This document shows positions 216 through 52,509 of a DNA stretch of 52,509 bases, in pieces. Every line of letters begins with the position of its first letter. Position 1 is the first letter of the stretch. The notes under the pieces are model-generated. The model did not search any database and was not told the origin of the DNA. It saw nothing but the letters and a program-made list of their open reading frames with translations. Origin of the DNA: a virus (taxonomy: Duplodnaviria > Caudoviricetes); IMG/VR virus record IMGVR_UViG_3300011403_000015, positions 1-52,509 of that record, one strand, 5' to 3'. The translations under genes and the position numbers were made by a program.

Positions 216-221
216 TAAAAC

Positions 222-458: not shown

Positions 459-471
459 CAACAATCTGCAA

Positions 472-529: not shown

Positions 530-556
530 ATAAACCAAAATCAAATCGGAGGCAAT

Positions 557-892: not shown

Positions 893-896
893 GTAA

Positions 897-953: not shown

Positions 954-985
954 ATAAAACAATTACAAATCAGAAAGGCAATATT

Positions 986-1468
986 ATGTACATGGATCTA
1001 TGGGTTGCTACCGATGGGATTACTACGGTACGCTTTTCCGACCGCCAAAGCGCAGAAGTTTACTGCGCCCAAACAGGATGGCAAACATCTGACCTTTGGT
1101 GTATACGGCAGCAACTAATCGTAACACCAGATGGGGAAAGCGCAACAGTAGAACCCTGGTGCAGTCGGATGGACCCAGATGTAGATACAGAAGTACAGGG
1201 TACATGGCTAGATCATGTGTTTGTACCGCCTGCAAATTCTGTAGCAGAAGGCATGAGCGAAGATGATCTACCTGTAACCTACAGTTCTGAATATCTACGC
1301 CAGCTAGGTAGCATATCGGAAAGGCTAGGTTGGGATTTTCGTGACCTGGCTGCAACAGAACCCACTATTTACAACAATCTAGTGGCTTACGTTAAAAAGT
1401 GCGATGCAAAGAGCAAGAAACCTACACTAAAAGAAGCAGAAAAAATTGTGGGTAGGTACGCTAGTTAA
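986..1468 (+). CDS. hypothetical early protein
   Basis: ORF 944..1468; ATG at 986 follows AGAAAGG RBS. Confidence 0.7.
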   Translation: MYMDLWVATDGITTVRFSDRQSAEVYCAQTGWQTSDLWCIRQQLIVTPDGESATVEPWCSRMDPDVDTEVQGTWLDHVFVPPANSVAEGMSEDDLPVTYSSEYLRQLGSISERLGWDFRDLAATEPTIYNNLVAYVKKCDAKSKKPTLKEAEKIVGRYAS

Positions 1469-1480
1469 TCAGATTGCCAG

Positions 1481-1543
1481 GTAAGGGTACGGCACACAAT
1501 CAGAAGGGTGTGCCGTTACCTTACTTTACAATCGGTAAAGTAA
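1481..1543 (+). promoter_or_regulatory. Intergenic double-hairpin element, copy 3
   Basis: GTAAGGGTACGGCACAC...GTGTGCCGTTACCTTAC overlapping TTACTTTAC-aatcg-GTAAAGTAA. Confidence 0.7.
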
Positions 1544-1573
1544 CACAAACAAAAGTCAGAAAGGCTTACAAAT

Positions 1574-1921
1574 ATGAATCAAATAGCAAGATGTAGGGCT
1601 GCTGCCGTTCGCTTTGTTGCGCCACAGGTACAAGAAAAGTTAAATCTTTCACCTGCTACGTTCGCAACACAGCTACCACCAGATTTTAGGCGGCAATTCG
1701 GACGGTACATAATCACAATTGAACCTATCCGATATGTGCAAGGCATAGAATGTGGTGGGCATTTTATAGCAGAACGCTACTATCCAGGTTCTAATTGGCC
1801 TACTAACCCAATCTTTGCAGATACATTAGGCGAGATTTGCGCCTACATCAAGTTTCGTAGTTTGTATTACCGTACAATAGATGCACGCCACCGCTGGCTT
1901 CTAGATGTATACCCCGCATAA
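1574..1921 (+). CDS. hypothetical early protein
   Basis: 115-aa ORF, AGAAAGG RBS. Confidence 0.7.
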   Translation: MNQIARCRAAAVRFVAPQVQEKLNLSPATFATQLPPDFRRQFGRYIITIEPIRYVQGIECGGHFIAERYYPGSNWPTNPIFADTLGEICAYIKFRSLYYRTIDARHRWLLDVYPA

Positions 1922-1935
1922 ATAAGATTGCAGGC

Positions 1936-1991
1936 AAAGGGTACGGCACACAATCAGATGTGCCGTTACCTTTATCTACAATTGTAGGTAA
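1936..1991 (+). promoter_or_regulatory. Intergenic double-hairpin element, copy 4
   Basis: Shares AGGGTACGGCACACAATCAGA and TGTGCCGTTACCTT with copy 3; second stem ATCTAC-aatt-GTAGGT. Confidence 0.7.
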
Positions 1992-2025
1992 TAACACAAT
2001 CAAAGTTCAGAAAGGCTTTATACAA

Positions 2026-2301
2026 ATGTCAGAATATCCATTGGTTGCCGTACCCCACTTACATGAAGACCAATTCATGGAAGGGGATGGGGATATGGGT
2101 TTTGCCGTACATCCGATGGCTGGCTATGGTACAATCATAGTTAGCGTGGATGGATGGGATTGCCCGTTGCAATTCTTCCGAGTAGACGGCATGGGTAGCT
2201 ATCAGGTTTACGAATACGTAAACGAAGAGTTTGGTGTAATCTGCTACATGGTTAATCTATCAGAGTTTGCCACTGTAGTACCTGTATCGCAAGAAGTGTA
2301 A
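2026..2301 (+). CDS. hypothetical early protein (acidic)
   Basis: ORF 1960..2301; ATG at 2026 follows AGAAAGG. Confidence 0.7.
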   Translation: MSEYPLVAVPHLHEDQFMEGDGDMGFAVHPMAGYGTIIVSVDGWDCPLQFFRVDGMGSYQVYEYVNEEFGVICYMVNLSEFATVVPVSQEV

Positions 2302-2307
2302 TCACGC

Positions 2308-2369
2308 ACACGATACGGCACAACCCCCACATTCTGTTGTGCCGTATAGTGTACAGGATTGCTGTACAC
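2308..2369 (+). promoter_or_regulatory. Intergenic double-hairpin element, copy 5
   Basis: ATACGGCACAAC...GTTGTGCCGTAT; ATAGTGTACAGGATTGCTGTACA is identical to copy 2. Confidence 0.7.
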
Positions 2370-2402
2370 GATCTTTCCAACAAATCTCGAGAAAGGGATA
2401 CC

Positions 2403-2684
2403 ATGCACTACGTAATGTACAAAGAAGCTGATGGCAACAGTGAACCAGAAGTTCTGTTTGCAGGTTCACGAGACAAGGCTATCGGTTACTACGAAGGCTT
2501 TGTAGATGCAATCCAAAGGATGGGCAACCATACACCAGATTTTCGGTTGGTTAAAGACCCAGATGTTGATCTTCGGATAGCACGCATATACTTCTATGCT
2601 AAAGATAATCCTGGTTATGCCTTCAACTTATGGGTTAAGAATTTAGAACTTCCGCATTCTTATAAGTACCAACATAAGGAATAG
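2403..2684 (+). CDS. hypothetical protein, paralogue of 5422..5679
   Basis: ATG at 2403 follows GAAAGGG; YVMYK..VLFAGS..YEGFVDAI..LWV aligns with YDVLYK..TLYTGS..TQAYIDSV..LWI. Confidence 0.7.
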   Translation: MHYVMYKEADGNSEPEVLFAGSRDKAIGYYEGFVDAIQRMGNHTPDFRLVKDPDVDLRIARIYFYAKDNPGYAFNLWVKNLELPHSYKYQHKE

Positions 2685-24526: not shown

Positions 24527-24934
24527 TTATTCTTCCTCTCCTAATGTTACATATCCTAAGTTTGCTAATCTCTGCAAAGATACTCGAATCTTTGGCCCCC
24601 AATAATCACGAGCTGGAGTTAAGATGGCATAACGTCCCTGATGCGCTAATTCTAACCAAATGGTATAATGCAGCTCTGGATTGTGCTGTAGTACAATCGT
24701 ACCGATTGGCCCACCAGAAGGATCTACCCAACCCTTCAGACCTTCACGAGCTTTACCAGTCACATTTTGCCAGGGTGCGTTATCCTTCGCCCATAGCTCC
24801 ATTTCAGAGGCTAACCGTATAGCTTCTTTCCTACCCGCTACGAAGGTCGCTTGCAAGAACAGCTCGGTTGTCTCTCCCATTTTGGTTAGAGACTTGGGAT
24901 TCTCTACGTACACGCCGGATCGCCCCGCCATCAT
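24527..24934 (-). CDS. HK97 gp10-like tail completion protein
   Basis: WAKDNAPWQNVTGKAREGL...YTIWLELAHQGRYAILTPA; AAGGAGG RBS. Confidence 0.75.
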   Translation of the reverse strand: MMAGRSGVYVENPKSLTKMGETTELFLQATFVAGRKEAIRLASEMELWAKDNAPWQNVTGKAREGLKGWVDPSGGPIGTIVLQHNPELHYTIWLELAHQGRYAILTPARDYWGPKIRVSLQRLANLGYVTLGEEE

Positions 24935-25973
24935 ACCCTCCTTGTTCGTGGATCAACTCTATGAGTCCGGCAGCAGCATCTCGGTAAGTTTGATGTCCAG
25001 ATAGCCAAGCTCTTGCTTCCTTGCCTATCAGCGCAGCTTTATCAGGCGCATGATAGCAGAACTGCATAGCATCTGCTACCTTATGCTCATCCGCTACCAT
25101 CCACTCCCCGCTATCTCCCCGACCAGACGGCAGCACAGGCTTAATCTTACCACCTCGCACGATGATGGCCCACTTATTCGTGTTGCCGTCATCTAACCCT
25201 GCATACTGTTGCACAATCACGGGAAGGCCCATCATCGCAGCTTCACGATGAGGCATCCCCCATCCTTCGCAACGGGAAGGCAATGCAAGACAATCCCCCT
25301 GTGCGTAGAAGTCAGCCATATCCTCATAGATCCCTATATCAATTACAATGCGAGGATCCCAATCCTTTGCCCTGCGTAGAAGTTGCAACAAAGGATTGCC
25401 TCTAGGAGTGCTTTTAATGATGAGCCGTACATTCTGCTCTCCGGCACTTTTGCTGCCGAAGGCTTTGTAGAAAGCCCCGTAAACTTCCTGCCAACCCTTA
25501 CGAGTTCCTCGATCTGCTATGGTAAGGAAGGTATAGGGTCTTTCAGGGATCTGCTTTCCTACAGGAAATTCATCTGGATCTGTACCTAACGGCACAACCG
25601 ATATAGGAACCTTCACGCCACTATTGGTAAAGGCTTCCAAGTTATGCTGACACGGCACAAGAATCCTATCCAAACCGCAACGATTCAATAGCTTCACCGT
25701 ACTCTTGGGAATAGTGGTAGTTTCACACATAGTATAGAGCCAGTGTGTTCCCTTACCAGGAATCTTCCGCACGAATCTAGGAAGATGACAGGTGATGGTA
25801 AAGTTATCCCAATTTACACCCATCTGGTTCAGCATCCATTGCGGTCTGTCGATATCTTCGCAGAGCAACGGCAGCACATCCATTCCCCACTGTTGCATCT
25901 CACGCACTAAGCGACTGGAAAATCTACCATAGCCATCATGATTCAGATAGTAACTAATCCAGTTCACTCTCAT
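24831..25973 (-). CDS. GT-B fold glycosyltransferase (GT4-like)
   Basis: DGYGR N-terminus, RKG motif, LPSRCEGWGMPHREAAMMGLPVI (EX7E signature). Confidence 0.9.
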   Translation of the reverse strand: MRVNWISYYLNHDGYGRFSSRLVREMQQWGMDVLPLLCEDIDRPQWMLNQMGVNWDNFTITCHLPRFVRKIPGKGTHWLYTMCETTTIPKSTVKLLNRCGLDRILVPCQHNLEAFTNSGVKVPISVVPLGTDPDEFPVGKQIPERPYTFLTIADRGTRKGWQEVYGAFYKAFGSKSAGEQNVRLIIKSTPRGNPLLQLLRRAKDWDPRIVIDIGIYEDMADFYAQGDCLALPSRCEGWGMPHREAAMMGLPVIVQQYAGLDDGNTNKWAIIVRGGKIKPVLPSGRGDSGEWMVADEHKVADAMQFCYHAPDKAALIGKEARAWLSGHQTYRDAAAGLIELIHEQGGYDGGAIRRVRRESQVSNQNGRDNRAVLASDLRSG

Positions 25974-32027: not shown

Positions 32028-33639
32028 GGACAGCCCTCGTTGATGTTCTGATTACCCGTACAGTACGAGTAAAATTAGATTGCCCACGCCGCACAGTAGA
32101 TACGGCCCCAACAGGTATTTCATCCCCCACAGGTTCCATTTCTGGTGCAGCACGTCGCCCCTCAACATGAGCAGAGGCCATCATCACGTCCCCACCAAGG
32201 ATGATGATGCGAGCACACTGAGCCAGCGCAAAGCTCGTAGCTCTGTCGTCATGCTCATGTTCAGGGGCTTTTAACGTGCTACCGACTATGGAGGCGAGTT
32301 GTTGATAAGTAGAAAAAGCATGTACAATCGCGTCTTTTTCTTGTATAACCTTTGTACAATGTGTATACATTATAGCCTTTCCCTTAGTGGTATTGAGCCA
32401 CCCAGGACGGCTATCCATACCATTCATCGTACCTTCAAAGCCATCCTCTGCCAGCTTGAGCAGCACAGCATGACCATGATTGTTGCGTTCCACTAACACA
32501 CTAGCCTCGTTATAGAAGCCAGCTAACTTCTCAATGTAATCTGCAAAGGTGTTCGGTTGCAGCCGTTCGGCTAACAACGCTACTTCCTCGCCTGTAGCCA
32601 CATCCATAACAGTTGCAGAGCTATCATCTGAGTTAGGATTTCCTTCTGCAGGATCCGCCCCAATGACGTAAATGTGGCCGTCTTCAGGTCGCTTAAACAC
32701 AGTAAGACCAGGAAGCCCAATATTATCATCCCCCTCAAGCTCCTCGTAAACTGCCGCAAGCCATTCATAGGGAATCCTCTTATCCATTGAGCGTGGCTTC
32801 AGTGCCTCAGAATCGGTCGCTGGATATTGCTCGTACAGGTCGTCAAGGCTTCCTGTACGAGATTCAATATCCACCTTCTCCTTCTCATACCATTCCGGAG
32901 TCCTACGAGGATGAACGTACCAGGGCAAGAAGATGTGCGCCCAAGCCGTCTTGCCAGCTTTGGCGTCAATGTAGATCTTTTTGAAGTCAGAGATGGGCTT
33001 GTCTTTATCGGCACGAGACAGCAGTATCATTTTCCCACCGTTTGCAATAGTGGGTTTAACTGCTCGGAGAAGCGAGTTTAGGTCAGGAGAGAGATCAGCC
33101 TCGTCGACAATAGCCAGAGTAGCAGTATAACTATCGCCAGCAGAAGTAGGAAAACTTCGGGCTGTGCTCGCATTTTCCATACTCCACTCATGAGCATTGT
33201 CAGTGAAGACGTCATGACCACCCTTCATCCATTCCGGCAAGCGGTCATACATCCCACGAAGACGGTCTTCGGAGAGCAGGTAGATTGCATCTATGTCCCG
33301 CTTACTAAATATCAACACAGATGCAATCGGCCTGAAAATCATGCACCATAAAGCATACGCAAGAACAAGCCAGGTGAGACCAATCTGCCTTGCCTTGAGT
33401 ACGATGGATAACTGATTATTATGGATAATGTCAAGTGCAGCCATCTGAGCAGGCCACAGCTCAAAGGGAACCCAACCTGCATCTACAGTATCGTAGATGT
33501 GACAATACGTCCTGATAAAATAAGCAGGACTTTGATAGCATTTTCCAAGCTCCTCAGCCTCCAATTGCGTTAAGCTAAAATCAGGAGATGCTGAGAAGGT
33601 TCCTTTCTTCAGAGACAGTTTCCTCTTTTTCATCGACAA
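32002..33639 (-). CDS. terL: terminase large subunit
   Basis: KARQIGLT Walker A, AIVDEAD Walker B, GADPAEG and HDDRATS nuclease motifs. Confidence 0.95.
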   Translation of the reverse strand: MSMKKRKLSLKKGTFSASPDFSLTQLEAEELGKCYQSPAYFIRTYCHIYDTVDAGWVPFELWPAQMAALDIIHNNQLSIVLKARQIGLTWLVLAYALWCMIFRPIASVLIFSKRDIDAIYLLSEDRLRGMYDRLPEWMKGGHDVFTDNAHEWSMENASTARSFPTSAGDSYTATLAIVDEADLSPDLNSLLRAVKPTIANGGKMILLSRADKDKPISDFKKIYIDAKAGKTAWAHIFLPWYVHPRRTPEWYEKEKVDIESRTGSLDDLYEQYPATDSEALKPRSMDKRIPYEWLAAVYEELEGDDNIGLPGLTVFKRPEDGHIYVIGADPAEGNPNSDDSSATVMDVATGEEVALLAERLQPNTFADYIEKLAGFYNEASVLVERNNHGHAVLLKLAEDGFEGTMNGMDSRPGWLNTTKGKAIMYTHCTKVIQEKDAIVHAFSTYQQLASIVGSTLKAPEHEHDDRATSFALAQCARIIILGGDVMMASAHVEGRRAAPEMEPVGDEIPVGAVSTVRRGQSNFTRTVRVIRTSTRAVHAPTENLG

Positions 33640-34030
33640 CGTAGATCCCTGTTCTCATGGCAGCTATCAACATCGCAGGCGACATACCAATAGATTCCCC
33701 ATCTTTACCTGTAATTTCTTGCCGTTCAGAATATCCTCTAGCTTTACCTAATCTACTAAGAAGCCACTTAGCATCTGTAGTATCTCCAAGATCCCCATTA
33801 CGCTGTACTTCCTGCGCTATCTGTACATTGCGAAATACTACAGATTCACACAGATCAACCATCGTTTCCCGCTCTGCTTCAAAAACAGCTTTTATCTCAG
33901 GATCATTCTGGATGTAGGCTTCGGCAACACGCCATTCACATCGCAATCTCTTGGCGATGGTACTGATGATACCACCACTTCCAGAGATAGCATCTAGAAT
34001 TTGTTGATCTACAATGGATTCTTTATTCAT
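33581..34030 (-). CDS. terminase small subunit-like HTH protein (copy A)
   Basis: GIISTIAKRL HTH, KARGYSERQEITGKDG; directly upstream of terL. Confidence 0.75.
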   Translation of the reverse strand: MNKESIVDQQILDAISGSGGIISTIAKRLRCEWRVAEAYIQNDPEIKAVFEAERETMVDLCESVVFRNVQIAQEVQRNGDLGDTTDAKWLLSRLGKARGYSERQEITGKDGESIGMSPAMLIAAMRTGIYVVDEKEETVSEERNLLSIS

Positions 34031-34886
34031 TGCAACCTACTAAAAGCGGTCGGGTCGGATTTGCACCGCCCTCTTCTGACTGGTAGTCAACTGCGTCCTG
34101 TGTCGCCTCGACCGCATGATAACGTTTAGGATAAGGTTGTCGCATCTTCTCTACCTTAGCAATCAACGCTTTATCTGTTTTATCTAAGATATATACATAT
34201 CTATACTTAGCATTACTTCGCTGTTCAGTCCATCCGGCAGCACGTAATTCTTCTACATATGAACTGCGAGGCTTCTTGAAGCCACCACGTCTTTGCAAGT
34301 CATATGGTAGTTTTTGATCATATACTCTACCCGTAGGTGCAATCCATTGAGTAGTTGAAGAACCTTTACCTACGCATATCCAATTACATGCTTGGTAGAT
34401 TGTGCCTATTTCACCTGCATCTGTATCAGAATATGCTATCAGCAATTTAGCCTTCGTATCTTTAGCCATTAGCTTGCACGTCCAAGATACTAATTTAGAA
34501 TTTGCACCTTTCGGTGACCAATGCGTATTAGCTCCACGAGCAAGGATTGCTAATTCACGCTTTTCTATACCCCATTCCATGTGCGTACTTACACCACCTG
34601 TAGCGAAGCCTGCGGCAACACAACATATACCCGCACAATAAGAACCAAAGAATATGCCGTAGTGATAAGTGGTCTGTGCCATTGTTCCCAACCATTCGTA
34701 TTTCAGAATGATCTGCTCTGCCAAATTCCTACTGACAGGTCGCACGATAGCACGCTTAACATCTAAATGCGGTACAGGTGGCACACCTTCAGATTGATAT
34801 CTATCCCGAAGCTGCTTTTGCCAAGCAACATCACTAACTGCATTACGAAATGTCGATCGTAACAGTTGCTCGCTTTGCCCACTCAT
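34023..34886 (-). CDS. Mom-like (GNAT-fold) DNA adenine-modification protein
   Basis: ANSKLVS..LIAYSDTDAGEIGTIYQACNW and KYRYVY resemble the Mom-family S(Y/F)AD..G..G.IYQA.N(F/W) motif. Confidence 0.7.
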   Translation of the reverse strand: MSGQSEQLLRSTFRNAVSDVAWQKQLRDRYQSEGVPPVPHLDVKRAIVRPVSRNLAEQIILKYEWLGTMAQTTYHYGIFFGSYCAGICCVAAGFATGGVSTHMEWGIEKRELAILARGANTHWSPKGANSKLVSWTCKLMAKDTKAKLLIAYSDTDAGEIGTIYQACNWICVGKGSSTTQWIAPTGRVYDQKLPYDLQRRGGFKKPRSSYVEELRAAGWTEQRSNAKYRYVYILDKTDKALIAKVEKMRQPYPKRYHAVEATQDAVDYQSEEGGANPTRPLLVGCNE

Positions 34887-35409
34887 CTAGCTTTCCCTGA
34901 AAATCTACTAGATCCCTTGTTGAACAGCGGATTTCAATTAACTGCTCACTGGCTAATTGCGGTTCTTCTCGGGGTTCTGCTTCTGGTGGATCATCACTTC
35001 TCTTAAACTCTACAGGTTCAAATCCCCAATTCAGAAGATCCTCTACCGAAAATCTATTAGTTAAAATTTCAAAATCCCATTCACCGCCGGCACGATTGGC
35101 AACAATATTCGCTTGCTCTGCCTGCCGTTCCGTCCAGCGTACTTGACGATAGGAATATTTTCTATCCTTCCAAACCACAAATCCAAAGCCAACCGTACCT
35201 TGCTCGTCAGCTTCTGGATATTCTTCCGTCATGATAACTTTGCAGGAATTTATATCAAAAATCTTACTACGCTGATTCCCGCCTATAATTTCATCGCTAT
35301 TAAGCTCATGAACAATACCCGACAAATCCCCTAACTCCAACAGCCAAGTAGCAAGATCCCCCTGCTGCTTATCGCTTATGCGTCTTGGGTTTTTGTGATA
35401 AGGTTTCAT
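34843..35409 (-). CDS. ParB/Srx N-terminal-domain protein
   Basis: PYHKNPRRI..IIGGNQR..NIVANRAGGEWD, the type usually paired with phage DNA-modification enzymes. Confidence 0.75.
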   Translation of the reverse strand: MKPYHKNPRRISDKQQGDLATWLLELGDLSGIVHELNSDEIIGGNQRSKIFDINSCKVIMTEEYPEADEQGTVGFGFVVWKDRKYSYRQVRWTERQAEQANIVANRAGGEWDFEILTNRFSVEDLLNWGFEPVEFKRSDDPPEAEPREEPQLASEQLIEIRCSTRDLVDFQGKLDEWAKRATVTIDIS

Positions 35410-35843
35410 GGATTTAGATTATCAACTAAACGAGCAGGAAAAAGAGGATGCTCTATAATTTCTTCTTGCTTGGGCTGGTCTGCTGCCTGTCGCATTGCAG
35501 CAATTAAGAACTTAGCATCTACCTTAACTTCTACTCTATTGGTAACATTAGCAGGAGCAGAGCTTAGATCATAACCTCTATCCCTAGCTTGAGTCTTCAG
35601 GAAGAACATAAGCAAAGTAGGATCATCTTGCATCTTCTGCACTAAAAGATCTTCTGCTTGATCTTTAACAAATTCCTTGATTTGTTTTTTAGTATCCATA
35701 ACGGATGGATGTCTTACCATGTAATCTACAAGCTCACCTCGACTCAATCCTAACTCTTTAGCAGCTAATCCCACATTTCCCATTTGATTGCGGATAGCGA
35801 GAATTACTATATTTTCTTCGAGGTACTCAGATTGTTTGGTCAT
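35406..35843 (-). CDS. terminase small subunit-like HTH protein (copy B)
   Basis: GNVGLAAKELGLSR HTH, FFLKTQARDRGY; LIAAMR shared with copy A. Confidence 0.7.
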   Translation of the reverse strand: MTKQSEYLEENIVILAIRNQMGNVGLAAKELGLSRGELVDYMVRHPSVMDTKKQIKEFVKDQAEDLLVQKMQDDPTLLMFFLKTQARDRGYDLSSAPANVTNRVEVKVDAKFLIAAMRQAADQPKQEEIIEHPLFPARLVDNLNP

Positions 35844-35862
35844 AAATATTTTCCTGTATAGA

Positions 35863-36013
35863 TTTACCCTATTAGGCTAACACAACATAACCTATTTGTA
35901 AAGCGGCAAAACACCTTATATTGTGGGGCATATGCCTTTATTTGCGCCATTATACAGCCTGTGCTATACTACTAAATACGTTGTGCGCCCAAGCACAATA
36001 AAATATTACAGCC
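35863..36013. promoter_or_regulatory. divergent control region between structural and replication operons; GA/TC-free
   Basis: No GA or TC over ~150 bp; GCAAAACACCTTA at 35906-35918. Confidence 0.75.
35942..35970 (+). promoter_or_regulatory. sigma70-type promoter for the replication operon
   Basis: TTGCGC-N17-TATACT with TG extended -10. Confidence 0.7.
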
Positions 36014-36031
36014 GAGAAAGGCCAAGACAGA

Positions 36032-37720
36032 ATGCCAGAAAAGCAACCGCCAGCTCCAGATGTTGGCAGAGTAACCTTCCTACCAGAGACAAAGCAAGAC
36101 TTTTTCTTCTTCGTCCCCACCAAAGTTAATCCCACCCTCAAACTACTAGACGGTAGCATGTGGTTCATAGCCAACAATCCTACGTTGGGTTTGTGCTATC
36201 GTGCTACAACTTCGCTTGAAGCTCTACACTGGTTACGGGATAGCTTAGGCCCACTGATGCTTGCGCCGGATGTAGCAAAATGGCGCAGAGAAGTTACCTT
36301 CGTTAACCCTATCCCTGAAATACGTAATCTACCTTTGTTCCCTTTCCAGCGTGAGGCTATTAGCTTTCTAGCTGATCGTCAGCGTGCCATGCTATCACTT
36401 AGTCCTGGATTAGGTAAAACGATTTGCAGCATTACGGCAGCGAACCTACTCGAAGATGTGGATACTGTACTGGTCATAGCTCCGCTTTCCCTACTGTATA
36501 TGTGGAAAAGCGAAATAGAGAAATGGGAACAGTTCCTACCCCGTAAGAGCAATGTGATTATCTATCACGGCAAGAAAGCCACATTGCAGGAAATGAACAA
36601 CAAGGTACGCAATCGCATGACCTGGGTAATTACTAATCCAGAGACCGCTATAAAAATTGTACCGACATTGCTGACCAAGCACTTTGACCTCATGGTACTA
36701 GACGAAAGCATCCTATACAAAAGCCGAACTTCTCTACGCACCAAAGGCGTAGTAAGATTAGCTAAGGGTATCCCCAGAGTATGGGAACTTACAGGCGCAC
36801 CAGCTAACCGTATGATTGATGATATATGGTCACAGTTCAATATCCTCAAGCCAAAAGCCTACAGTTCCTATTGGCGTTTTGCTCAGGAATACTGCATGGT
36901 GAACCCTACACCCTGGGGCAATCAAGTAGTTGCTAATAAAATGGATGCTGAATACGTCATAAAGAAACGCTTTGAAGATATATACTTTGCTCGTAGTCAA
37001 AGCGAAGTATTAGATATACCAGAGTGGATTTTTGAGGAAATAGATATACCCATGAAGCCTAAGCAAGAAAAGGCTTATCATGAGATGGCTGTAGACTTAG
37101 CCACCACGCTAGAGCAGGAAGACGATAGCGGCAACGTCACGGCCAGCACGAAGATCACAGTAGAGAACCATCTCAGTAAAGTAACCAGATTAATCCAACT
37201 TGCCAGCAATCCAATGCTGCTAGACGGCACAAACGAAAGCGGTAAATGGGATGCTCTGCCGGAGCTTATGGAAATCTACGATGGCCCCTGGCTCGTATGG
37301 GTGAGCTTCACCCGTACTGCCTACTATCTGGAAGAGTTCCTAGCTCGTAAGGTAGACCAGCGCATAGGTAAGATTATAGGCGCAACAGATACAGAAGAGC
37401 GTAACAATTGGATACGTAAGTTCCAAGAAGGCGAAACAAAGATTCTCATCCTAAACATGCAAACAGGTAGCTTCGGCCACACCCTCACGGCAGCAAGGAC
37501 AGCCTTCTACCCTGAAAGAAATTATGATAGCAACTACTTTCAGAGTCTTCATCGTTTCCGCCGCATCGGTACAGTTCATGCTCCTAACGTGGTTCATCTA
37601 CGATCTGTGTACCAAGATGGTTCACCTACTATTGATCATTTGGTTCACGGTCTTTTAGACTATAGAGTTGGGATGATCAAAGATTTAACTACTGGCATGT
37701 TAAAGGATATACTTAAATGA
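36032..37720 (+). CDS. SNF2-family helicase
   Basis: LFPFQ, SPGLGKT, VLDES, LTGAP, QSLHRFRRIG motifs. Confidence 0.9.
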   Translation: MPEKQPPAPDVGRVTFLPETKQDFFFFVPTKVNPTLKLLDGSMWFIANNPTLGLCYRATTSLEALHWLRDSLGPLMLAPDVAKWRREVTFVNPIPEIRNLPLFPFQREAISFLADRQRAMLSLSPGLGKTICSITAANLLEDVDTVLVIAPLSLLYMWKSEIEKWEQFLPRKSNVIIYHGKKATLQEMNNKVRNRMTWVITNPETAIKIVPTLLTKHFDLMVLDESILYKSRTSLRTKGVVRLAKGIPRVWELTGAPANRMIDDIWSQFNILKPKAYSSYWRFAQEYCMVNPTPWGNQVVANKMDAEYVIKKRFEDIYFARSQSEVLDIPEWIFEEIDIPMKPKQEKAYHEMAVDLATTLEQEDDSGNVTASTKITVENHLSKVTRLIQLASNPMLLDGTNESGKWDALPELMEIYDGPWLVWVSFTRTAYYLEEFLARKVDQRIGKIIGATDTEERNNWIRKFQEGETKILILNMQTGSFGHTLTAARTAFYPERNYDSNYFQSLHRFRRIGTVHAPNVVHLRSVYQDGSPTIDHLVHGLLDYRVGMIKDLTTGMLKDILK

Positions 37721-39947: not shown

Positions 39948-40377
39948 GCAAGATTTAGATCTTCTCCGCCAGAAAGAGTATATGTTCTGGAGAAGTATAT
40001 CTTTAGTCTCTGACCTAGAAGAAGATTGCTGGCTTTGGCACAAAAGTACCACTCCTAATGGCTATGGAAAAATTCACTTAGGATCCAATAGAGCCGGTAA
40101 GCAGATAATGATCTATGCTCATCGTTTTAGTTATCTGCTATTTAATGGATCTATTCCGCAAAATATGCTATGTTTGCACAAGTGCGATGAGCCTAGATGC
40201 TGCAATCCTCTGCATTTGTTTATAGGAAATAAAGCTGATAACTCTATAGACATGATGCAGAAGGGTAGAGGTAACGGGCAATTTCACCCAGAACATACAA
40301 CTTGGGTAGGAAAGCATCACACAGAAGAAACTAAGAGGAAGATATCAGAAGCCAAGAGGAAAGAAAATGGAACCTGA
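39931..40377 (+). CDS. HNH endonuclease with NUMOD3 motif
   Basis: CWLW..YAHRFSY..LHKCDEPRCCNPLHL; GKHHTEETKRKISEA. Confidence 0.9.
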   Translation: MAWVDEQDLDLLRQKEYMFWRSISLVSDLEEDCWLWHKSTTPNGYGKIHLGSNRAGKQIMIYAHRFSYLLFNGSIPQNMLCLHKCDEPRCCNPLHLFIGNKADNSIDMMQKGRGNGQFHPEHTTWVGKHHTEETKRKISEAKRKENGT

Positions 40378-41185
40378 CATTACCATCATAGGTGGCGGTT
40401 TGAGTGCTATCTACGCCTATTGGGGTTGCCGTGATGCTGGCTACGAAGCTGACCAGATAGAAGTGCTGGCTTCAAAGATGGCACTCCCCATAGGAGCTAT
40501 CTTCATGTATGAAAGCCCAATCCCCTGGATCGCTACACCCATCACCAGCATCTTGTTAGGTACGGCAGACCTGTACTCCATGAACCAATGGACAAAGGTA
40601 GTGAAGACTAGCGCACATACACGCTTCAATAACAGCCAGAAAACTGTTACCGATTACCTGTATATGTATGAGGAAATGGCGACAACGCTGTGGGGCATGA
40701 TGCCTGGTTTACGGGAAAGTAAACCGTTAAGCGCACGAGAAATAGAGCAACTCAAGAAAGAGCGCAAGGCGGTTATCTGCACCTTCGCTAATACCGAGTA
40801 CAGACAAGGCTATGCGGAAAAGGGTTATATCATAAACTTCCCTATCTACATCAGTAGGGTAGAAACAGATAAGCACATCGTACTGTACAATGGTCTAAAT
40901 ACAATCCCCTGGGTACGGCAGACAATGGTTCCAGGACACCAGTACACAGAGTATCCTAACCATATCATAGGGCCAACCATTACACAGTATGAAAACAACA
41001 GAGGCAACGCAGATGGACAGATACACTTTGCCCCTGACCTCATGCCCAACACCCCACCTCTAGCTTGGCATGAACGTATAGAAGATAACCTATTGCGTGT
41101 AGGTAGATTGGCTGCCTTCAAAACGGGCTACCTAAGCCATCATGCACGTATGGATACCAAACGGTTCCTAATGGAGTTAGTATGA
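40367..41185 (+). CDS. FAD/NAD-binding Rossmann-fold protein (putative oxidoreductase or mutase)
   Basis: ITIIGGGLSA dinucleotide-binding start; VGRLA near the C-terminus. Confidence 0.6.
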   Translation: MEPDITIIGGGLSAIYAYWGCRDAGYEADQIEVLASKMALPIGAIFMYESPIPWIATPITSILLGTADLYSMNQWTKVVKTSAHTRFNNSQKTVTDYLYMYEEMATTLWGMMPGLRESKPLSAREIEQLKKERKAVICTFANTEYRQGYAEKGYIINFPIYISRVETDKHIVLYNGLNTIPWVRQTMVPGHQYTEYPNHIIGPTITQYENNRGNADGQIHFAPDLMPNTPPLAWHERIEDNLLRVGRLAAFKTGYLSHHARMDTKRFLMELV

Positions 41186-42156
41186 GAAAGACCCTAGCGC
41201 AAGTATGGGACGAGCAGCAAGAATACAACGATAAGGTTAAACAGTTCCAAACACGTAGCAGCTCGGAATGGCTTATCAACTACATACTAGGCGCACATAG
41301 CGAGCTAAGTGAATTGCTAGATCAAACTCACTGGAAGACGCATCGTCTAGAAACTATGTGGCAGTTCGGCCCCAACATAAGCGAAGAACTAGCTGACCTT
41401 ACCAAGTATGTGTTCAGCATGTGGATTGAGATGGGCTACACAGAGCAGGATATGCTAGATTCCATGCACAGCAAGCATGAGATTCTTGAGCAGCTAATGT
41501 ATCAAGATACACGGCCACAACTACAAGAACGTAACATCCTCATGCTAGACCTGGATGGCGTAGTAGCGGACTTCCGCAAAGGCTTTATGCTGTGGCTCAA
41601 TAACACCAAGTGGCGTGACGTGCTCACGCTGGACGAGCGTGATATTGGTTTACACATGGACATCAACAATGGCTGGAACTACCATAGCTATCACCAAGCA
41701 AAGATGGAATTTGAGCGTGACGGTGGTTATGGCACACTCCCATCCATCACCCGTATTAAGAAGTGCGTTAATGCCTTACATCGGGTTGGCTGGTACATCA
41801 TTGTGTACACAGCACGTCCTTACCGCACCTATAAGCGCATCTGGAGCGACACTTGGCTATGGCTTAAGAACCATGACATTGAAGCAGATGAGCTACACTT
41901 CGGTTATGATGAGCGTGTAGTTGCGGCCAGCCAATACAAAGAAGAAAACCATGTGGTAGCCCTAGAGGATGATCCTACACTTATCAAGCGTTATGTAGGA
42001 TGTAACATCCCCGTCCTCTTATGCCCACAGCCGTACAATCAGAACATCTTCCTCAACAACAACTATCTAAGGTTAATACAAGATGAGCAAGAACACTGGG
42101 ACATCAGCAATGCAGTCCATGGAACAATTGAAACTGGAGCTTTCAATGCCGGATAG
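41182..42156 (+). CDS. all-alpha NTP pyrophosphatase (dUTPase/MazG-like) fused to HAD 5'-nucleotidase-like domain
   Basis: ELSELLD..WK.H and EELADLTKY; LDLDGVVADF, YTAR and LEDD HAD motifs. Confidence 0.8.
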   Translation: MRKTLAQVWDEQQEYNDKVKQFQTRSSSEWLINYILGAHSELSELLDQTHWKTHRLETMWQFGPNISEELADLTKYVFSMWIEMGYTEQDMLDSMHSKHEILEQLMYQDTRPQLQERNILMLDLDGVVADFRKGFMLWLNNTKWRDVLTLDERDIGLHMDINNGWNYHSYHQAKMEFERDGGYGTLPSITRIKKCVNALHRVGWYIIVYTARPYRTYKRIWSDTWLWLKNHDIEADELHFGYDERVVAASQYKEENHVVALEDDPTLIKRYVGCNIPVLLCPQPYNQNIFLNNNYLRLIQDEQEHWDISNAVHGTIETGAFNAG

Positions 42157-42514
42157 AGAAAAGGATACACTTGACGCCATGCGTGATTTAGTGAAGACCG
42201 TAACAGGATTGACTCCGGCAGAACAACAGCGTATGGAAGCTACCATTAAACTCTATCAGATAGAATATGAAGTCTGCAAAGATATATTTATGGATCGTAA
42301 TAAGATCTATAAAAATACCTTTGAACATCTGGGACTTATCGGTACAGTTATCACCCTCATAGGAGATACTTACCGCCTACGCAATATGATTGTACAAGAG
42401 CCAGATCACGGCAGAAAGTACAAAGAGCAAATCGAAGATAAGCTGCGTGATGTGGTCAACCAAGCCCTGATAAGCCTTATGATGCTACACGAAGACAACT
42501 ACGAGGGCAGATAA
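42146..42514 (+). CDS. DUF1599-like nucleotide-modification-associated protein
   Basis: IFMDRNKIYKNTF..RLRN..IEDKLRDVVNQALISL pattern; ATG at 42146 follows GGAG. Confidence 0.6.
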   Translation: MPDREKDTLDAMRDLVKTVTGLTPAEQQRMEATIKLYQIEYEVCKDIFMDRNKIYKNTFEHLGLIGTVITLIGDTYRLRNMIVQEPDHGRKYKEQIEDKLRDVVNQALISLMMLHEDNYEGR

Positions 42515-43413
42515 TGAGTACAATGGCAAGCCGTAGCGTCCATAAAGATGGCGGCAACAAAGCACCTGGTCAGTACGGACGCACCGATATCAACTATGAC
42601 AACCTCACGGTAGAGTGCATCTTGTGGCCTGAAGAGGAAGTCGTAAAGCGTGTTCTCAGTAAAGCTAGTGTTGCCGTCAAAGGCAGCATCGTTGGTAAAG
42701 ATGAAGTAGATGAGCGTAGCGTGCAAGATATGTTCAGGGGTGGCTTGAACCAAGCCTTAGAATGGTTCACGGTTGCTTTTGAATGTAGCGGCGTGACCAG
42801 AGGCGTCACGCACCAACTTGTAAGAACCCGCAAAGCCAGCTTCGCCCAACAAAGTATGCGATATGCAGACATGGGGAGCTTCAACGCACGTATGCCCAAA
42901 GCCATCGCAGAAAGCGAAGTAGATGCTGTACTAAGTGAATACAACTACCCCCATCTGTACAACTTACAATGGGATGAGGGTATGCACAGAGCTACCACAC
43001 CACAGAAGGTCTGGTTAGATGCAATAGCGGTTTCTCGGGAAGCCTATGCTTGGTTGGCCGAACATGACATACCCATGCAAGATGCACGCACCGTATGTCC
43101 CATCGCTACCGAAACCTACATTATCTGCGAATACCCACTTAGCGAGTTCATCGCTACCTATGCCTATCGTGCGTGCCAAATGTTCTACCCTGAAACAGTT
43201 GCGCTATTCGGGCTTATGCGTGAAGCCCTCTTAGAAAAGTGTGAATGGCTAGAACCCCATCTGCTGATAAGCTGCCAGAAGACCAGTGGTGGCATTAACG
43301 GATTGCCGCACAAATGCACCTATCAAGGATGGGAACAGGTAGAAGGTCAGTGTACCTTTGATTGGGCTTTAGAGGAGAACAGAATCTTCAAGAGCTCGAA
43401 AGTAGATAAGTGA
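42514..43413 (+). CDS. thyX: ThyX-like flavin-dependent thymidylate synthase with variant motif
   Basis: THQLVRTRKASFAQQSMRY (RHR->RTR), QDARTVCP. Confidence 0.8.
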   Translation: MSTMASRSVHKDGGNKAPGQYGRTDINYDNLTVECILWPEEEVVKRVLSKASVAVKGSIVGKDEVDERSVQDMFRGGLNQALEWFTVAFECSGVTRGVTHQLVRTRKASFAQQSMRYADMGSFNARMPKAIAESEVDAVLSEYNYPHLYNLQWDEGMHRATTPQKVWLDAIAVSREAYAWLAEHDIPMQDARTVCPIATETYIICEYPLSEFIATYAYRACQMFYPETVALFGLMREALLEKCEWLEPHLLISCQKTSGGINGLPHKCTYQGWEQVEGQCTFDWALEENRIFKSSKVDK

Positions 43414-51308: not shown

Positions 51309-51321
51309 TTGATAGGTTTGA

Positions 51322-52509
51322 GGCATTGTGGCTGTGCGTGCGGTTTAGGCGTACAGCTACAATGCCTTGTGGGGTTTTATTTTGCCTGCGTGTAGGCGTT
51401 TTAAGCGTGTTATGGGTTGTTTAGGTAGTTTGCTATGCTTTATGGGTTTTAAGGGCTTGCGGTGGCTTAATTTTAGGGTAAATTATCATATTTTGACAAA
51501 AATTGACAAAAAAATAAAAATTTTTAGATTATTTTTTGCAAATTTGAGCAGTTTTTATTGCGTATAGTAATATGCCTTACGATTTTTGCTTTTTTTTTGG
51601 GCGTTGGGGGCAAACAATCCTTTTCATTCCCTTATTTTTTCAAAATCTAAAAAAAATAATTTGGAAAATGGGCGTTTTTATCGGAGATGGTTCGGCCGGT
51701 TGGCGGCATTTAGCAACAAAAGATGCAATGCCGCAAGTACCTAGCAAATTTTGTTGCAAAACGGGCTTGCACCAAAAGTTGCAAAGCGGGGGGTAAAATA
51801 CACGTAATTTGTTTGCCAACATTGCCCCTAAACCTTTTGCCGTATTGCAACGTAATATGCTAAAAATAGGGGGTGCGGCGGGCAGGCAGGCAATAGCACA
51901 TATGGGCTACATAGCACATATGTGCTAGGGGGTGCGGTAGTTAACATAATAATAAAATGCCGTGTACCCCCTTTATTTTGGCCTACAAAGGCGGGTTGCC
52001 TTTGCAGGTATAAACTAGCATGGTGGGTAATTATAACCGTGTTGCGGTACTTACCCTTATTATTACACTGGTAATACTGCCTTTGCAGGTAAAATGGCGG
52101 GTTACCCAAATTATTGTGCAACAAAAATTGTAAACTGTTAAAAGGTGTTTTAACAGTTAGGGGGGTAAGGTGTTTTGCGGTATACCGCACCCCAAAATGG
52201 GGGGCGCAGGCAGTACCCCCACGGGGGGTAGGCCCCCTAAAAGGCAGGGGGTTAGTGTAGCGCACACCCATACCCATTGCACATTATATTGCGGCGGGGG
52301 GTAAGGTATAAAGGCAAAGGGATTGCCCTTTTTATTTATTGCCTATATACCCCCCCCCTATATATACCCTATACAAATTTTTATATTATTATAAAACCTT
52401 TGTATAACCTTAATACCTTACATTACCTTACACCTGCCGTAAACCTGCCCACCCCATTACCAACCCGCCCCCCGCACAATACCTTAATACCTTACGCCAA
52501 ACCCCCAAA
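51322..52509. other. right-end non-coding region, largely GA/TC-free, with short direct and inverted repeats
   Basis: No GA/TC in 51322-51485; a single GA (52321) in 51724-52509; TGCCTTTGCAGGTA at 51997 and 52078; inverted repeat at 52133-52158; TACCTTA repeats near the end. Confidence 0.8.

What the first reader, a model, noticed from the sequence alone, without database searches (positions are those of the whole stretch)
35863..36013. GA/TC-free island exactly covering the divergent promoter region
Seen: the gap between the structural (-) and replication (+) operons is GA/TC-free almost from one RBS to the other and contains a TTGCGC-N17-TATACT promoter. It lies in the genome interior, so a 'first-injected DNA avoids restriction' explanation does not cover it. 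Inference: this favours the idea that the modification would block RNA polymerase or regulator binding here.
Basis: partly seen in the sequence, partly recalled or inferred. Interest (0 to 1): 0.8.

Follow-up and report, generated by a model that had tools for sequence, protein, structure and literature searches.

The report
GA/TC-free promoter island in a phage
The DNA between two back-to-back phage operons contains no GA or TC step on either strand; it is one of several such stretches in this phage family, including whole genes whose proteins lack aspartate and glutamate, so something in the infected cell must read or mark that two-letter step.

Summary
Bases 35862-36014 hold no GA or TC, against about 18 expected; 0 of 200,000 shuffles reach zero. 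No other dinucleotide class has outlier gaps. The stretch holds two conserved divergent sigma-70-type promoters with extended -10 elements.

In 12 of the 14 related loci that include this intergenic region it is also GA/TC-free, although the sequence has diverged (61% mean column identity).

It is one part of a larger pattern:
- There are other islands at 7099-7278 and 51320-51486.
- A tract is cut by the contig ends. In relatives it is 4.7 kb with zero GA/TC (about 570 expected). It carries at least three conserved gene families whose proteins have no Asp or Glu.
- GA/TC recovers gradually over the first 3 kb of the early operon.

The Mom/ParB cassette is an insertion that is absent from five relatives which keep the islands, and 47 other Mom-bearing loci have no islands.

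My best reading (confidence 0.4) is that these are exempt islands for an unidentified DNA-level mark or reader specific for GA/TC. Two characterised phages with context-specific DNA modification (CAjan, M6) have no such islands.

This scan has noted the same phenomenon before in other phage genomes. My paper searches found no published description.

The parts
35862..36014 (.). GA/TC-free island b, the finding: the intergenic DNA between the leftward packaging/structural operon and the rightward replication operon
   Evidence: conserved in 12 of 14 related loci
35942..35970 (+). Predicted rightward promoter: -35 TTGCGC (35942-47), 17-nt spacer ending in TGc, -10 TATACT (35965-70)
   Evidence: In the 9-sequence alignment TTTGC, the TG and T-A-.-A-.-T of the -10 are invariant. 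No start-site data.
35874..35902 (-). Predicted leftward promoter: -35 TTTACA (35897-35902), 17-nt spacer ending in TGt, -10 TAGCCT (35874-79)
   Evidence: The block TTGTAAAG (reverse complement CTTTACAA) and the ACCACA/ACACA block are invariant in 9 of 9 sequences. No start-site data.
35981..35998 (+). Inverted repeat TTGTGC-N6-GCACAA in the rightward 5' leader; possible operator or leader hairpin
   Evidence: listed as a hairpin on the - strand; conserved in the close relatives only
36014..36034 (+). Ribosome-binding site GAGAAAGG and ATG of the SNF2-type helicase gene (36032-37720); the first GA after the island
   Evidence: GAAAGG invariant
35406..35843 (-). First gene of the leftward operon, an HTH/small-terminase-like protein of 145 aa
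7099..7278 (.). GA/TC-free island a, between a terminator-like hairpin and the RBS of the next rightward genes. Present in G002 and L068, absent in G001 and G004.
51320..51486 (.). GA/TC-free island c, directly after the last gene of the rightward operon; holds a conserved hairpin
   Evidence: A 166-172 bp equivalent occurs in G001, G003, G004 and G005.
51487..51722 (.). AT-rich segment that does contain GA/TC: two TTGACA hexamers, phased T-tracts and iteron-like repeats ending in a conserved ATCGG(A/G)GATGG..TCGG motif. Candidate origin or packaging site.
51723..52509 (.). Start of the large GA/TC-free tract (one GA at 52321), cut off by the contig end. It continues at 1-65.
   Evidence: Full tract in relatives: G003 4783 bp and G004 4721 bp with zero sites, G001 4624 bp with 3.
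66..225 (+). Leader in which GA/TC occurs almost only inside a 26-bp-periodic repeat, AAATCTC(G)
   Evidence: same arrangement in L067 2167-2330
222..2684 (+). First six early genes with graded, partial GA/TC avoidance
   Evidence: Per 300 bp: 14, 20, 22, 25, 27, 23, 25, 32, 33 against a median of 38. GA/TC-containing synonymous codons 17.6% against 29.8% in later genes; codon-junction observed/expected 0.68 against 0.99.
33570..35568 (-). Strain-specific cassette: 149-aa paralogue of the HTH protein, Mom family protein (34023-34886), ParB-like protein (34843-35409)
40367..41185 (+). Conserved compact flavoprotein (GGGxxA Rossmann start) with a flavin-monooxygenase/UDP-galactopyranose-mutase-like fold; candidate base- or nucleotide-modifying enzyme
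   Evidence: pLDDT 94.6; TM about 0.5 to StyA, UGM, UbiI, VioD
41182..43413 (+). Conserved nucleotide-metabolism genes: an all-alpha NTP pyrophosphatase fused to a HAD nucleotidase-like domain, and a ThyX-like protein (RTR in place of the recalled RHR motif)
24831..25973 (-). Conserved GT4 glycosyltransferase; passes the cut-off of the Pfam family GT4-conflict

Best explanation
Island b is the control region of two back-to-back operons. It carries two outward-facing sigma-70-type promoters whose weak, GA-free -35 boxes (TTGCGC, TTTACA) are backed by extended -10 elements. The consensus -35 box TTGACA itself contains GA (recalled).

The island is one member of a set of stretches in this phage family that selection keeps free of the step 5'-GA-3'/5'-TC-3' on both strands. 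The most likely reason is that something in the infected cell marks or reads that two-letter step on DNA. The best candidate is a phage-directed base modification with dinucleotide specificity. DNA that sequence-specific proteins must read (RNA polymerase sigma, regulators), or that must work first (the 'pioneer' genes of the 4.7-kb tract), is kept as ordinary, unmarked DNA.

Shown: the purge, its specificity, its conservation, that it acts at the DNA level, that it extends into genes, and that it does not depend on Mom. Inferred: that a mark exists, that the phage makes it, and that it hinders promoter recognition.
For: (1) Zero GA/TC in 153 nt, with 0 of 200,000 shuffles reaching zero, and only this dinucleotide class has outlier gaps.
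(2) 12 of 14 related loci keep a 144-172 bp GA/TC-free island at the same place, with 61% mean column identity. Each has 18-21 sites expected and 0 observed.
(3) The effect is at the DNA level: GA and TC are both absent, including between the two predicted start sites.
(4) It is not a mutational or genome-wide bias. GA is 0.997 and TC 0.975 of expectation overall, codon-junction values are 0.98 and 0.98, and many other intergenic regions are normal.
(5) The same purge covers 4.7 kb in relatives: 0 of about 570 expected sites in G003 and G004. That tract includes genes whose 19 of 19 family-A products have no Asp or Glu. Substitutions there concentrate at third codon positions, for example 31/22/72.
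(6) Inside the tract, restriction-type words are avoided more strongly than outside, as expected for unprotected DNA. In G001, GGCC is 6 observed against 61 expected inside and 77 against 119 outside. In G004, CGCG is 0/32 and CCGG 0/13 inside.
(7) Two-base specificity has precedents among phage DNA-modifying enzymes: DpdA of phage iggy, GA (PMC10484667, passages read); 5mYOX97, NTC (PMC13229309, sections 8 and 12 read); thymidine hypermodification at TG/TC (PMC6449724, passages read).
(8) Candidate enzymes are conserved in all five relatives: the GT4-conflict glycosyltransferase, the compact flavoprotein, the NTP pyrophosphatase/nucleotidase fusion and the ThyX-like protein.
Against: No modification has been measured. 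No known dinucleotide-specific modifier was found. Tet_JBP matched 0 of 5 records. No TGT/DpdA, 5-hmdU kinase or pyrophosphorylase family appeared among the 56 of 58 window ORFs scanned against Pfam.

The two characterised comparators have no islands. CAjan has a longest GA/TC gap of 81 against about 77 expected by chance. M6 has 51 against about 60 for GA/TC and 79 against about 71 for CA/TG.

A promoter argument does not explain why whole genes are purged, or why avoidance fades gradually along the early operon. The replication genes behind island b have normal GA/TC, so any block to elongation cannot be severe. Some promoter-like sites elsewhere in the window contain GA/TC. L009 and L010 tolerate 3 sites in the island.
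Confidence: 0.4

Rival explanations
1. A host factor attacks or marks GA/TC on incoming DNA. Examples would be a TC-preferring DNA deaminase or an ADP-ribosyltransferase acting on a TC-containing motif. The 4.7-kb tract is then the first DNA to enter. Its pioneer genes must be expressed before the factor is neutralised, and promoters are kept free so that operons can still be switched on.
For: The tract has a sharp upstream border and a gradual downstream recovery over about 3 kb in G000, G001 and G002, and more weakly in G004. Avoidance at synonymous sites is seen in the first six early genes only. The tract starts beside a conserved iteron-like, possibly packaging, motif. Restriction-type words are avoided more strongly inside the tract. 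The classical T5 first-step-transfer precedent is recalled, not read.
Against: The rest of the genome carries about 6,400 sites with no depletion, so a damaging factor would still hit every essential gene. Interior islands a and b have sharp edges and sit at operon starts, not at a genome end. No physical genome end has been mapped.
Confidence: 0.2
2. A phage-encoded early DNA-binding protein reads GA/TC steps and silences promoters that contain them, as a host shut-off. It could be one of the basic, acid-free proteins of the tract. Phage promoters and the genes for the silencer itself lack the step and so escape.
For: The tract encodes conserved basic proteins without acidic residues: family B has 29-52 Lys+Arg in the three full-length members printed (176-309 aa), and family A has no Asp or Glu in 19 of 19 members. 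The consensus -35 TTGACA contains GA, while both island-b promoters avoid it.
Against: No DNA-binding domain was detected. The family A model is of low confidence (pLDDT 63.9). No protein is known to read a bare 2-bp step. The idea does not explain the extra restriction-word avoidance in the tract.
Confidence: 0.1
3. One reading: the phage's Mom-like enzyme (with the glycosyltransferase) modifies GA, and the island avoids Mom sites so that RNA polymerase can bind.
For: A Mom family protein is encoded 1 kb away (PF25680, 89.6 bits against a cut-off of 27.1). The preference of Mu Mom for adenines preceded by G or C is recalled, not tested.
Against: Mom and the ParB-like gene are absent from 5 of 5 related records that keep the islands. 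The cassette is an insertion/deletion relative to L011 and L003. None of 47 other Mom-bearing loci has a GA/TC outlier gap; the best is 120 bp, with a log10 expected number of -1.8.
Confidence: 0.05
4. An RNA-level purge: 5' leaders and early mRNAs avoid GA to escape a GA-specific RNA-modifying defence (CmdT-like) or a ribonuclease.
For: CmdT ADP-ribosylates adenine in GA dinucleotides of single-stranded RNA and blocks translation (PMC11618068, abstract and passages read). Early genes are the most strongly purged.
Against: TC is purged as completely as GA on the same strand: 0 GA and 0 TC in 4.7 kb. The spacer between the two divergent predicted start sites is also free. The Shine-Dalgarno sequences keep their GA.
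Confidence: 0.05

Closest known systems
Dinucleotide-context DNA hypermodification in phages: DpdA/dPreQ0 at GA in phage iggy and at GA+GGC in CAjan; T-dioxygenase 5mYOX97 at NTC; 5hmdU-derived thymidine hypermodification at TG/TC in M6, ViI and PhiW-14; dapT at TG
   Same: These are the only known phage systems with a two-base specificity, and two of them have exactly the GA or TC step (PMC10484667, PMC7544227, PMC13229309, PMC6449724, PMC13458397; abstracts, passages or sections read). They act on both strands of double-stranded DNA.
   Different: None of their defining enzymes was found here. CAjan and M6 show no dinucleotide-free islands. The passages I searched in the iggy paper contain no mention of exempt islands or acid-free genes.
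Restriction-site avoidance, and restriction-site-free first-step-transfer DNA of phage T5 (recalled, no paper read)
   Same: Selection removes a short DNA word, most strictly from DNA that must function before protection is in place. This family also shows ordinary site avoidance: CGCG is 7 observed against 86-87 expected.
   Different: The word here is a 2-bp non-palindromic step, far too frequent to be a restriction site. It is removed absolutely, but only from islands, including interior promoter regions, and at the cost of all Asp and Glu codons.
Mom of phage Mu (adenine N6 modification)
   Same: A Mom family gene lies next to the island. The Mom modification is context-dependent and protects against restriction (abstracts of PMC3299994 and PMC6483171 seen in a search listing).
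   Different: The islands occur without Mom, and Mom occurs without islands.
CmdTAC defence (GA-specific ADP-ribosylation of mRNA)
   Same: The same dinucleotide, GA, is the target (PMC11618068).
   Different: It acts on single-stranded RNA, whereas the purge here is strand-symmetric and covers DNA that is not expected to be transcribed.
Dinucleotide purging in eukaryotic viruses (CpG against ZAP, TC against APOBEC3; recalled)
   Same: A virus loses one dinucleotide because a cellular factor reads it.
   Different: Those cases are statistical depletions of RNA or single-stranded DNA targets. This one is a total, island-confined purge in double-stranded phage DNA.

Membership tests
Sigma-70-type bacterial promoter with extended -10 | -10 hexamer TAnnnT preceded by TGn | tested here: met
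   TGcTATACT (+) and TGtTAGCCT (-). T, A, A, T of the rightward -10 and the TG are invariant in 9 of 9 aligned relatives.
Sigma-70-type bacterial promoter with extended -10 | -35 hexamer close to TTGACA at a 16-18 bp spacing | tested here: inconclusive
   The spacing is 17 for both. TTTACA matches 5 of 6 and TTGCGC only 3 of 6. The consensus scan did not list either promoter. TTTGC and TTGTAAAG are invariant in relatives.
Sigma-70-type bacterial promoter with extended -10 | Mapped transcription start | not testable with these tools
   No RNA data were available for this phage.
Mom-dependent DNA modification as the cause of the purge | Mom gene present wherever the islands are present | tested here: not met
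   Mom is present in the window (PF25680). It is found in 0 of 5 related records that keep the islands, and the cassette is replaced by about 160 bp in L011 and L003.
Mom-dependent DNA modification as the cause of the purge | Other Mom-bearing phages show the same purge | tested here: not met
   0 of 47 other Mom loci (4-21 kb each) have a GA/TC outlier gap. These loci are fragments, so promoter regions may be missing.
Known dinucleotide-specific phage DNA modification pathways | Signature enzyme (DpdA/TGT, Tet_JBP 5mYOX, 5-hmdU DNA kinase, pyrophosphorylase) | tested here: not met
   Tet_JBP matched 0 of 5 records at E<=1. No such family appeared among the Pfam hits of 56 of 58 window ORFs or among the PHROG hits. 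Divergent enzymes could be missed.
Known dinucleotide-specific phage DNA modification pathways | Modified base present at GA/TC in virion DNA | not testable with these tools
   Only assembled contigs of short-read runs were available.
Known dinucleotide-specific phage DNA modification pathways | Characterised members show target-free islands | tested here: not met
   CAjan: longest GA/TC gap 81 against about 77 expected. M6: 51 against about 60 for GA/TC and 79 against about 71 for CA/TG.
Restriction-site avoidance / first-injected site-free DNA | The avoided word is a restriction-type site (4-8 bp, usually palindromic) | tested here: not met
   The avoided word is the 2-bp step GA/TC. All its longer contexts are absent from the islands, and it is not depleted elsewhere.
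Restriction-site avoidance / first-injected site-free DNA | Located at the genome end that enters first | tested here: not met
   Island b lies between operons in the interior, in all contigs that span it. For the 4.7-kb tract the physical ends are unknown.
Evasion of GA-specific RNA modification (CmdT-like) | Avoidance limited to GA on the transcribed sense strand | tested here: not met
   TC is equally absent (0 GA and 0 TC in 4.7 kb). The spacer between the divergent promoters is also free.

The most novel reading that the evidence does not exclude
A family of freshwater-sediment phages partitions its genome into ordinary DNA and 'exempt' DNA written without the step GA/TC. The exempt DNA comprises every major operon start and a 4.7-kb leading tract, with at least three conserved genes whose proteins are built without aspartate or glutamate. 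This would be the footprint of an undescribed dinucleotide-specific DNA marking system, possibly using the conserved compact flavoprotein, the GT4 glycosyltransferase and the ThyX-like or nucleotidase genes. The mark would interfere with promoter recognition and with first-round expression, so the phage has to keep pioneer genes and promoters unmarked. Similar islands noted by this scan in unrelated phages would make it a widespread, unrecognised principle of phage genome design.
Probability: 0.35. Interest if true: 0.9.

Novelty: new variant of a known kind. Interest (0 to 1): 0.78.

Why it matters
If the purge marks DNA that must stay free of a base modification or invisible to a reader, sequence alone would reveal three things:
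- the target motif of an unknown DNA-marking system;
- which parts of a phage genome must be read as native DNA;
- a class of 'pioneer' genes expressed first.

Acid-free proteins conserved over long evolutionary distances show how strong this DNA-level constraint is: it overrides protein chemistry.

It also offers a practical handle. Scanning viral metagenomes for dinucleotide-free islands could find new modification or defence systems and predict their specificity. The promoters of island b are ready-made test objects for how DNA modification affects transcription.

Tried and rejected
Searches and tools that led nowhere:
- Megablast of 34000-38000 against the GenBank phage collection gave no match.
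- The relatives search with gene 50559-51308 found none. The major capsid protein found no relative in bacterial genomes, so there is no host clue.
- Rfam (0 matches) and tRNA (0 genes) searches of the whole window found nothing.
- Sequencing runs: no RNA holder was listed. Contigs of four DNA runs laid on 35500-36400 showed variants only in the helicase gene and none in the island. They gave no information on transcript starts.
- The consensus promoter scan did not list either island-b promoter. Its single hit (35784-35813) lies inside a gene.
- The sequence search of the flavoprotein against solved structures gave only chance-level hits (E >= 0.22).
- The AlphaFold model of acid-free family A was too uncertain to search with (pLDDT 63.9).
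- The homologue search with family B found only a fragment of itself.
- A distant flavoprotein-bearing contig (L090, 23% identity) has no islands in the 20.8 kb seen.
- Earlier-findings look-ups by place and by sequence returned nothing.

Explanations rejected:
- Chance.
- A general property of non-coding DNA: many intergenic regions have normal GA/TC.
- Mutational bias: codon-junction GA and TC are both at 0.98 of expectation.
- An RNA-level cause and Mom as the cause (see rival explanations).
- Cleavage by a GA-specific nuclease: 6,400 sites elsewhere would be lethal unless they were modified, which leads back to the modification reading.

Paper searches for a published description of dinucleotide-free islands or acid-free phage proteins found none. 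These searches match literal words only and cover open-access papers only. I did not read any supplementary files, and those of the iggy, CAjan and 5mYOX papers may hold genome-wide maps that bear on this.

Full report
WHAT THE WINDOW IS. The window is one linear viral metagenome contig of 52,509 bp. It has no close match in the GenBank phage collection. Gene content is that of a tailed phage:
- a rightward block of small early genes (222-7069), followed by 7301-10250;
- a leftward tail, head and packaging block (10299-35843; large terminase 32002-33639, portal, capsid 27388-28398);
- a rightward replication and lysis block (36032-51308): SNF2 helicase, Sak4-like ATPase, SSB-like protein, RuvC-like protein, a flavoprotein, a nucleotide pyrophosphatase/nucleotidase fusion, a ThyX-like protein, DNA polymerase A, a primase and an M23 peptidase protein.
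The finding sits between the leftward and rightward blocks.

THE OBSERVATION. GA or TC dinucleotides start at 35861 and next at 36014, so 35862-36014 (153 nt) has none on either strand. At the genome rate of 0.1226 per position, the expected number of such gaps in the window is 1.7e-5. Shuffling the island's own letters gives 17.8 sites on average, and 0 of 200,000 shuffles reach zero. Among the ten strand-symmetric dinucleotide classes only GA/TC has outlier gaps. The gaps are 599, 188 (to the contig end), 179, 166 and 153 bp, then an 81-bp coding ACC repeat, then 41 bp. GA and TC are not depleted overall (0.997 and 0.975 of expectation) or at codon junctions (0.98 and 0.98). Many other intergenic stretches have normal counts, for example 47 sites in 42157-42513 and 33 in 23147-23452. 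The purge is therefore real, specific to this step, confined to a few places, and not a mutational bias.

WHAT IS IN THE ISLAND. On the other strand TTTACA-N17-TAGCCT, again with TG, lies at 35902-35874. I aligned nine distinct versions of this intergenic region from relatives (mean column identity 61%). The invariant blocks are exactly these elements: TTGTAAAG (the reverse complement contains TTTACA), ACCACA/ACACA, TTTGC, the TG, T-A-.-A-.-T of the rightward -10, and the GAAAGG ribosome-binding site. The simple consensus scan did not list them, because TTGCGC matches only 3 of 6 positions of TTGACA. The consensus -35 box contains GA, so a GA-free promoter cannot have it, and both promoters instead rely on an extended -10. 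An inverted repeat, TTGTGC-N6-GCACAA (35981-35998), lies in the rightward leader. No transcript data exist, so the promoters are predictions supported by conservation.

CONSERVATION. The helicase protein found 16 related loci (67-100% identity). Two of them start inside the gene. Of the 14 that include the upstream region, 12 have a GA/TC-free gap of 144-172 bp ending at the helicase ribosome-binding site. The other two, L009 and L010 (the same sequence type), carry three sites. For each distinct island, shuffles predict 18-21 sites, and none is observed. Several of these loci are near-identical copies, giving about nine distinct sequences.

THE LARGER PATTERN. The window has further islands at 7099-7278 (a) and 51320-51486 (c), and from 51722 to the contig end. 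That last stretch has a single GA at 52321 and continues at 1-65.

I fetched five related records whole. They show that the terminal stretch is the stump of a much larger tract:
- G003 has 4,783 bp with zero GA and zero TC (577 expected from base composition).
- G004 has 4,721 bp with zero (565 expected).
- G001 has 4,624 bp with 3 sites.
- G002 has 2,167 bp with 1 site, up to its contig end.

Four of the six contigs break in or at this tract. The order of elements is conserved in the records that span them:
1. the last gene of the rightward block;
2. island c (166-172 bp, with a hairpin);
3. an AT-rich segment with GA/TC, TTGACA boxes and iteron-like repeats, ending in a conserved ATCGG(A/G)GATGG..TCGG motif;
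4. the tract;
5. a leader in which GA/TC occurs almost only inside a 26-bp-periodic AAATCTC(G) repeat;
6. the early genes.

The upstream border of the tract is sharp: 52-55 sites per 300 bp, then none. Downstream the density recovers gradually: 14, 20, 22, 25, 27, 23, 25, 32, 33, 34, 39, 40 per 300 bp in the window, against a median of 38. G001 and G002 show the same recovery, and G004 a weaker one. In the first six early genes, GA/TC-containing synonymous codons make up 17.6% against 29.8% in later genes. Codon-junction GA/TC is 0.68 of expectation against 0.99.

GENES WRITTEN WITHOUT GA/TC. The tract is not all non-coding. Its downstream third carries forward-strand reading frames that are conserved as proteins even where the DNA no longer aligns:
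- family A, 129-169 aa;
- family B, 145-309 aa, basic;
- family C, 164-209 aa.

Family A has 15 database relatives. All 15, and the 4 from my loci, contain no Asp and no Glu. Differences between members concentrate at third codon positions, for example 31/22/72, as in genes under purifying selection. None of the families matches a Pfam family above its cut-off. The first 2.8 kb or so of the tract has no conserved frames and is not alignable even between phages whose flanking genes are 85-90% identical.

A Mom family protein (34023-34886; 89.6 bits against a cut-off of 27.1) and a ParB-like protein (34843-35409) lie 1 kb from the island. In relatives L011 and L003, however, window 33570-35568 is replaced by about 160 bp. 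In the window the cassette sits between two paralogues of an HTH/small-terminase-like gene that is single in relatives. Mom matched 0 of 5 related records (tblastn), and all five keep the islands. Conversely, 47 other Mom-bearing loci from other phages show no GA/TC outlier gap; the best is 120 bp, with a log10 expected number of -1.8. These records and loci are fragments, so absence is not proven for whole genomes. Together, though, G001 and G002 cover the whole gene order. Mom is therefore an accessory of this strain and not the cause.

WHAT ELSE COULD MARK GA/TC. Two-base specificity is known from phage DNA-modifying enzymes:
- DpdA of phage iggy replaces G in GA with dPreQ0 at 97% of sites (PMC10484667, passages read).
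- CAjan does so at GA and GGC (PMC7544227, title and abstract seen in a search listing).
- The phage thymine dioxygenase 5mYOX97 prefers NTC, and such pathways often sit beside glycosyltransferases, ParB-like genes and terminases (PMC13229309, abstract and sections 8 and 12 read).
- Thymidine hypermodifications favour TG/TC (PMC6449724, passages read) or TG (PMC13458397, passages read).

None of their signature enzymes was found here. Tet_JBP matched 0 of 5 records. No such family appeared among the Pfam hits of 56 of 58 ORFs.

Four candidates are conserved in all five relatives:
- a GT4 glycosyltransferase that passes the cut-off of the family 'GT4 in conflict systems';
- a 272-aa flavoprotein found widely in phages, with a confident model (pLDDT 94.6) that resembles flavin monooxygenases and UDP-galactopyranose mutase (TM about 0.5);
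- a pyrophosphatase/nucleotidase fusion;
- a ThyX-like protein with RTR where I recall RHR.
These are leads, not evidence of modification.

CONTROLS AGAINST THE LEADING IDEA. I applied the same gap test to two characterised phages. CAjan has a longest GA/TC gap of 81 bp, against about 77 expected by chance. M6 has 51 against about 60 for GA/TC and 79 against about 71 for CA/TG. A dinucleotide-specific modification therefore does not by itself produce exempt islands. If the idea holds here, the mark must be more disruptive than dPreQ0 or an aminoethyl group. That glucosylated hydroxymethyluracil (base J) stops transcription in trypanosomatids is a recalled precedent, not one I read.

A POINT IN ITS FAVOUR. 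Restriction-type words are avoided more strongly inside the tract than outside it:
- In G001, GGCC is 6 observed against 61 expected inside, and 77 against 119 outside.
- In G004, CGCG is 0 against 32 and CCGG 0 against 13 inside.
This fits DNA that lacks whatever protects the rest of the genome. It would equally fit DNA that enters the cell first.

WEIGHING.
- An RNA-level cause fails. An example is evasion of the GA-specific mRNA ADP-ribosyltransferase CmdT (PMC11618068, abstract and passages read). TC is purged as fully as GA, and the spacer between the divergent start sites is purged too.
- A GA-specific nuclease or a damaging host enzyme does not explain why 6,400 sites elsewhere are tolerated.
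- A first-entry argument explains the tract, its one-sided gradient and its extra site avoidance. It does not explain the sharp-edged interior islands at operon starts.
- The exempt-island reading explains the promoters, through sequence-specific recognition. With an added assumption about first-round expression, it also explains the pioneer genes. I give it 0.4.
- The host-reader and first-entry reading gets 0.2, a phage silencer that reads GA/TC 0.1, Mom 0.05 and RNA-level causes 0.05. The rest is unknown.

RELATION TO EARLIER NOTES OF THIS SCAN. A word look-up returned eight notes on other phage genomes that describe GA/TC-free (or VGA/TCB-free) islands at control regions and whole acid-free genes. 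Most attribute them to thymidine hypermodification. These notes are unchecked, I did not test their genomes, and none overlaps this family. They gave me the lead to the 5mYOX paper and to the CAjan and M6 comparisons. Here those comparisons came out negative for islands.

VERDICT. The region is a conserved divergent promoter region. The purge is a selected, DNA-level, family-wide feature that also covers genes. The Mom link is not supported. The agent remains unidentified.

Noticed in passing
window 51722-52509 and 1-65; G003:39-4822; G004:24152-28873; G001:27776-32400: A tract of about 4.7 kb with no GA/TC at all, cut by the window's contig ends. Four of the six related contigs break in or at it. 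Its first 2.8 kb or so is not alignable even between close relatives.
   Followed up: yes
L070:11331-11744, L072:1266-1655, L075:817-1224(-), L078:7933-8442, and L070:10287-11216, L075:1530-2261(-): Conserved protein families encoded inside the tract have no aspartate or glutamate: family A in 19 of 19 members, while family B is basic and Lys/Ala/Pro-rich. No known domain was found.
   Followed up: yes
window 66-225 (also L067:2167-2330): Five or so copies of a 26-bp-periodic repeat, AAATCTC(G), carry nearly all the GA/TC of the early-operon leader. They could be operators, or deliberate target sites at the border of the tract.
   Followed up: partly
window 51487-51722 and equivalents in G001, G003, G004, G005: An AT-rich segment with two perfect TTGACA boxes, phased T-tracts and iteron-like repeats ends in a conserved ATCGG(A/G)GATGG..TCGG motif exactly where the tract begins. 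It is a candidate replication origin or packaging site.
   Followed up: partly
window 33570-35568: The Mom/ParB-like cassette is an insertion flanked by two paralogues of an HTH/small-terminase-like gene (33581-34030 and 35406-35843), and relatives have one such gene. The ParB-like partner next to Mom recalls the ParB activators of phage thymine dioxygenases.
   Followed up: partly
whole window: Strong avoidance of CGCG: 7 observed against 86-87 expected. G001, G002 and G004 share it but G003 does not (41 against 42). Other 4-bp palindromes are moderately low (GATC 232 against 340, CTAG 133 against 220).
   Followed up: partly
window 7301-7633 and 39931-40377: Two HNH homing-endonuclease genes are absent from all five related records.
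   Followed up: no
window 40367-41185: A compact 272-aa flavoprotein with a monooxygenase/UGM-like fold sits in the nucleotide-metabolism cluster. It belongs to a large, almost purely viral, unannotated family.
   Followed up: partly
L055:7106-7333 and L056:15810-16037: In an unrelated Mom-bearing phage (37-38% G+C) there is a 227-bp stretch without any TA dinucleotide (log10 expected number about -5.3). I did not examine it.
   Followed up: no
window 22385-22432: An (ACC)16 repeat lies inside the 1155-aa putative tape-measure gene (a glycine run in the protein). It accounts for the 81-bp GA/TC gap there.
   Followed up: no
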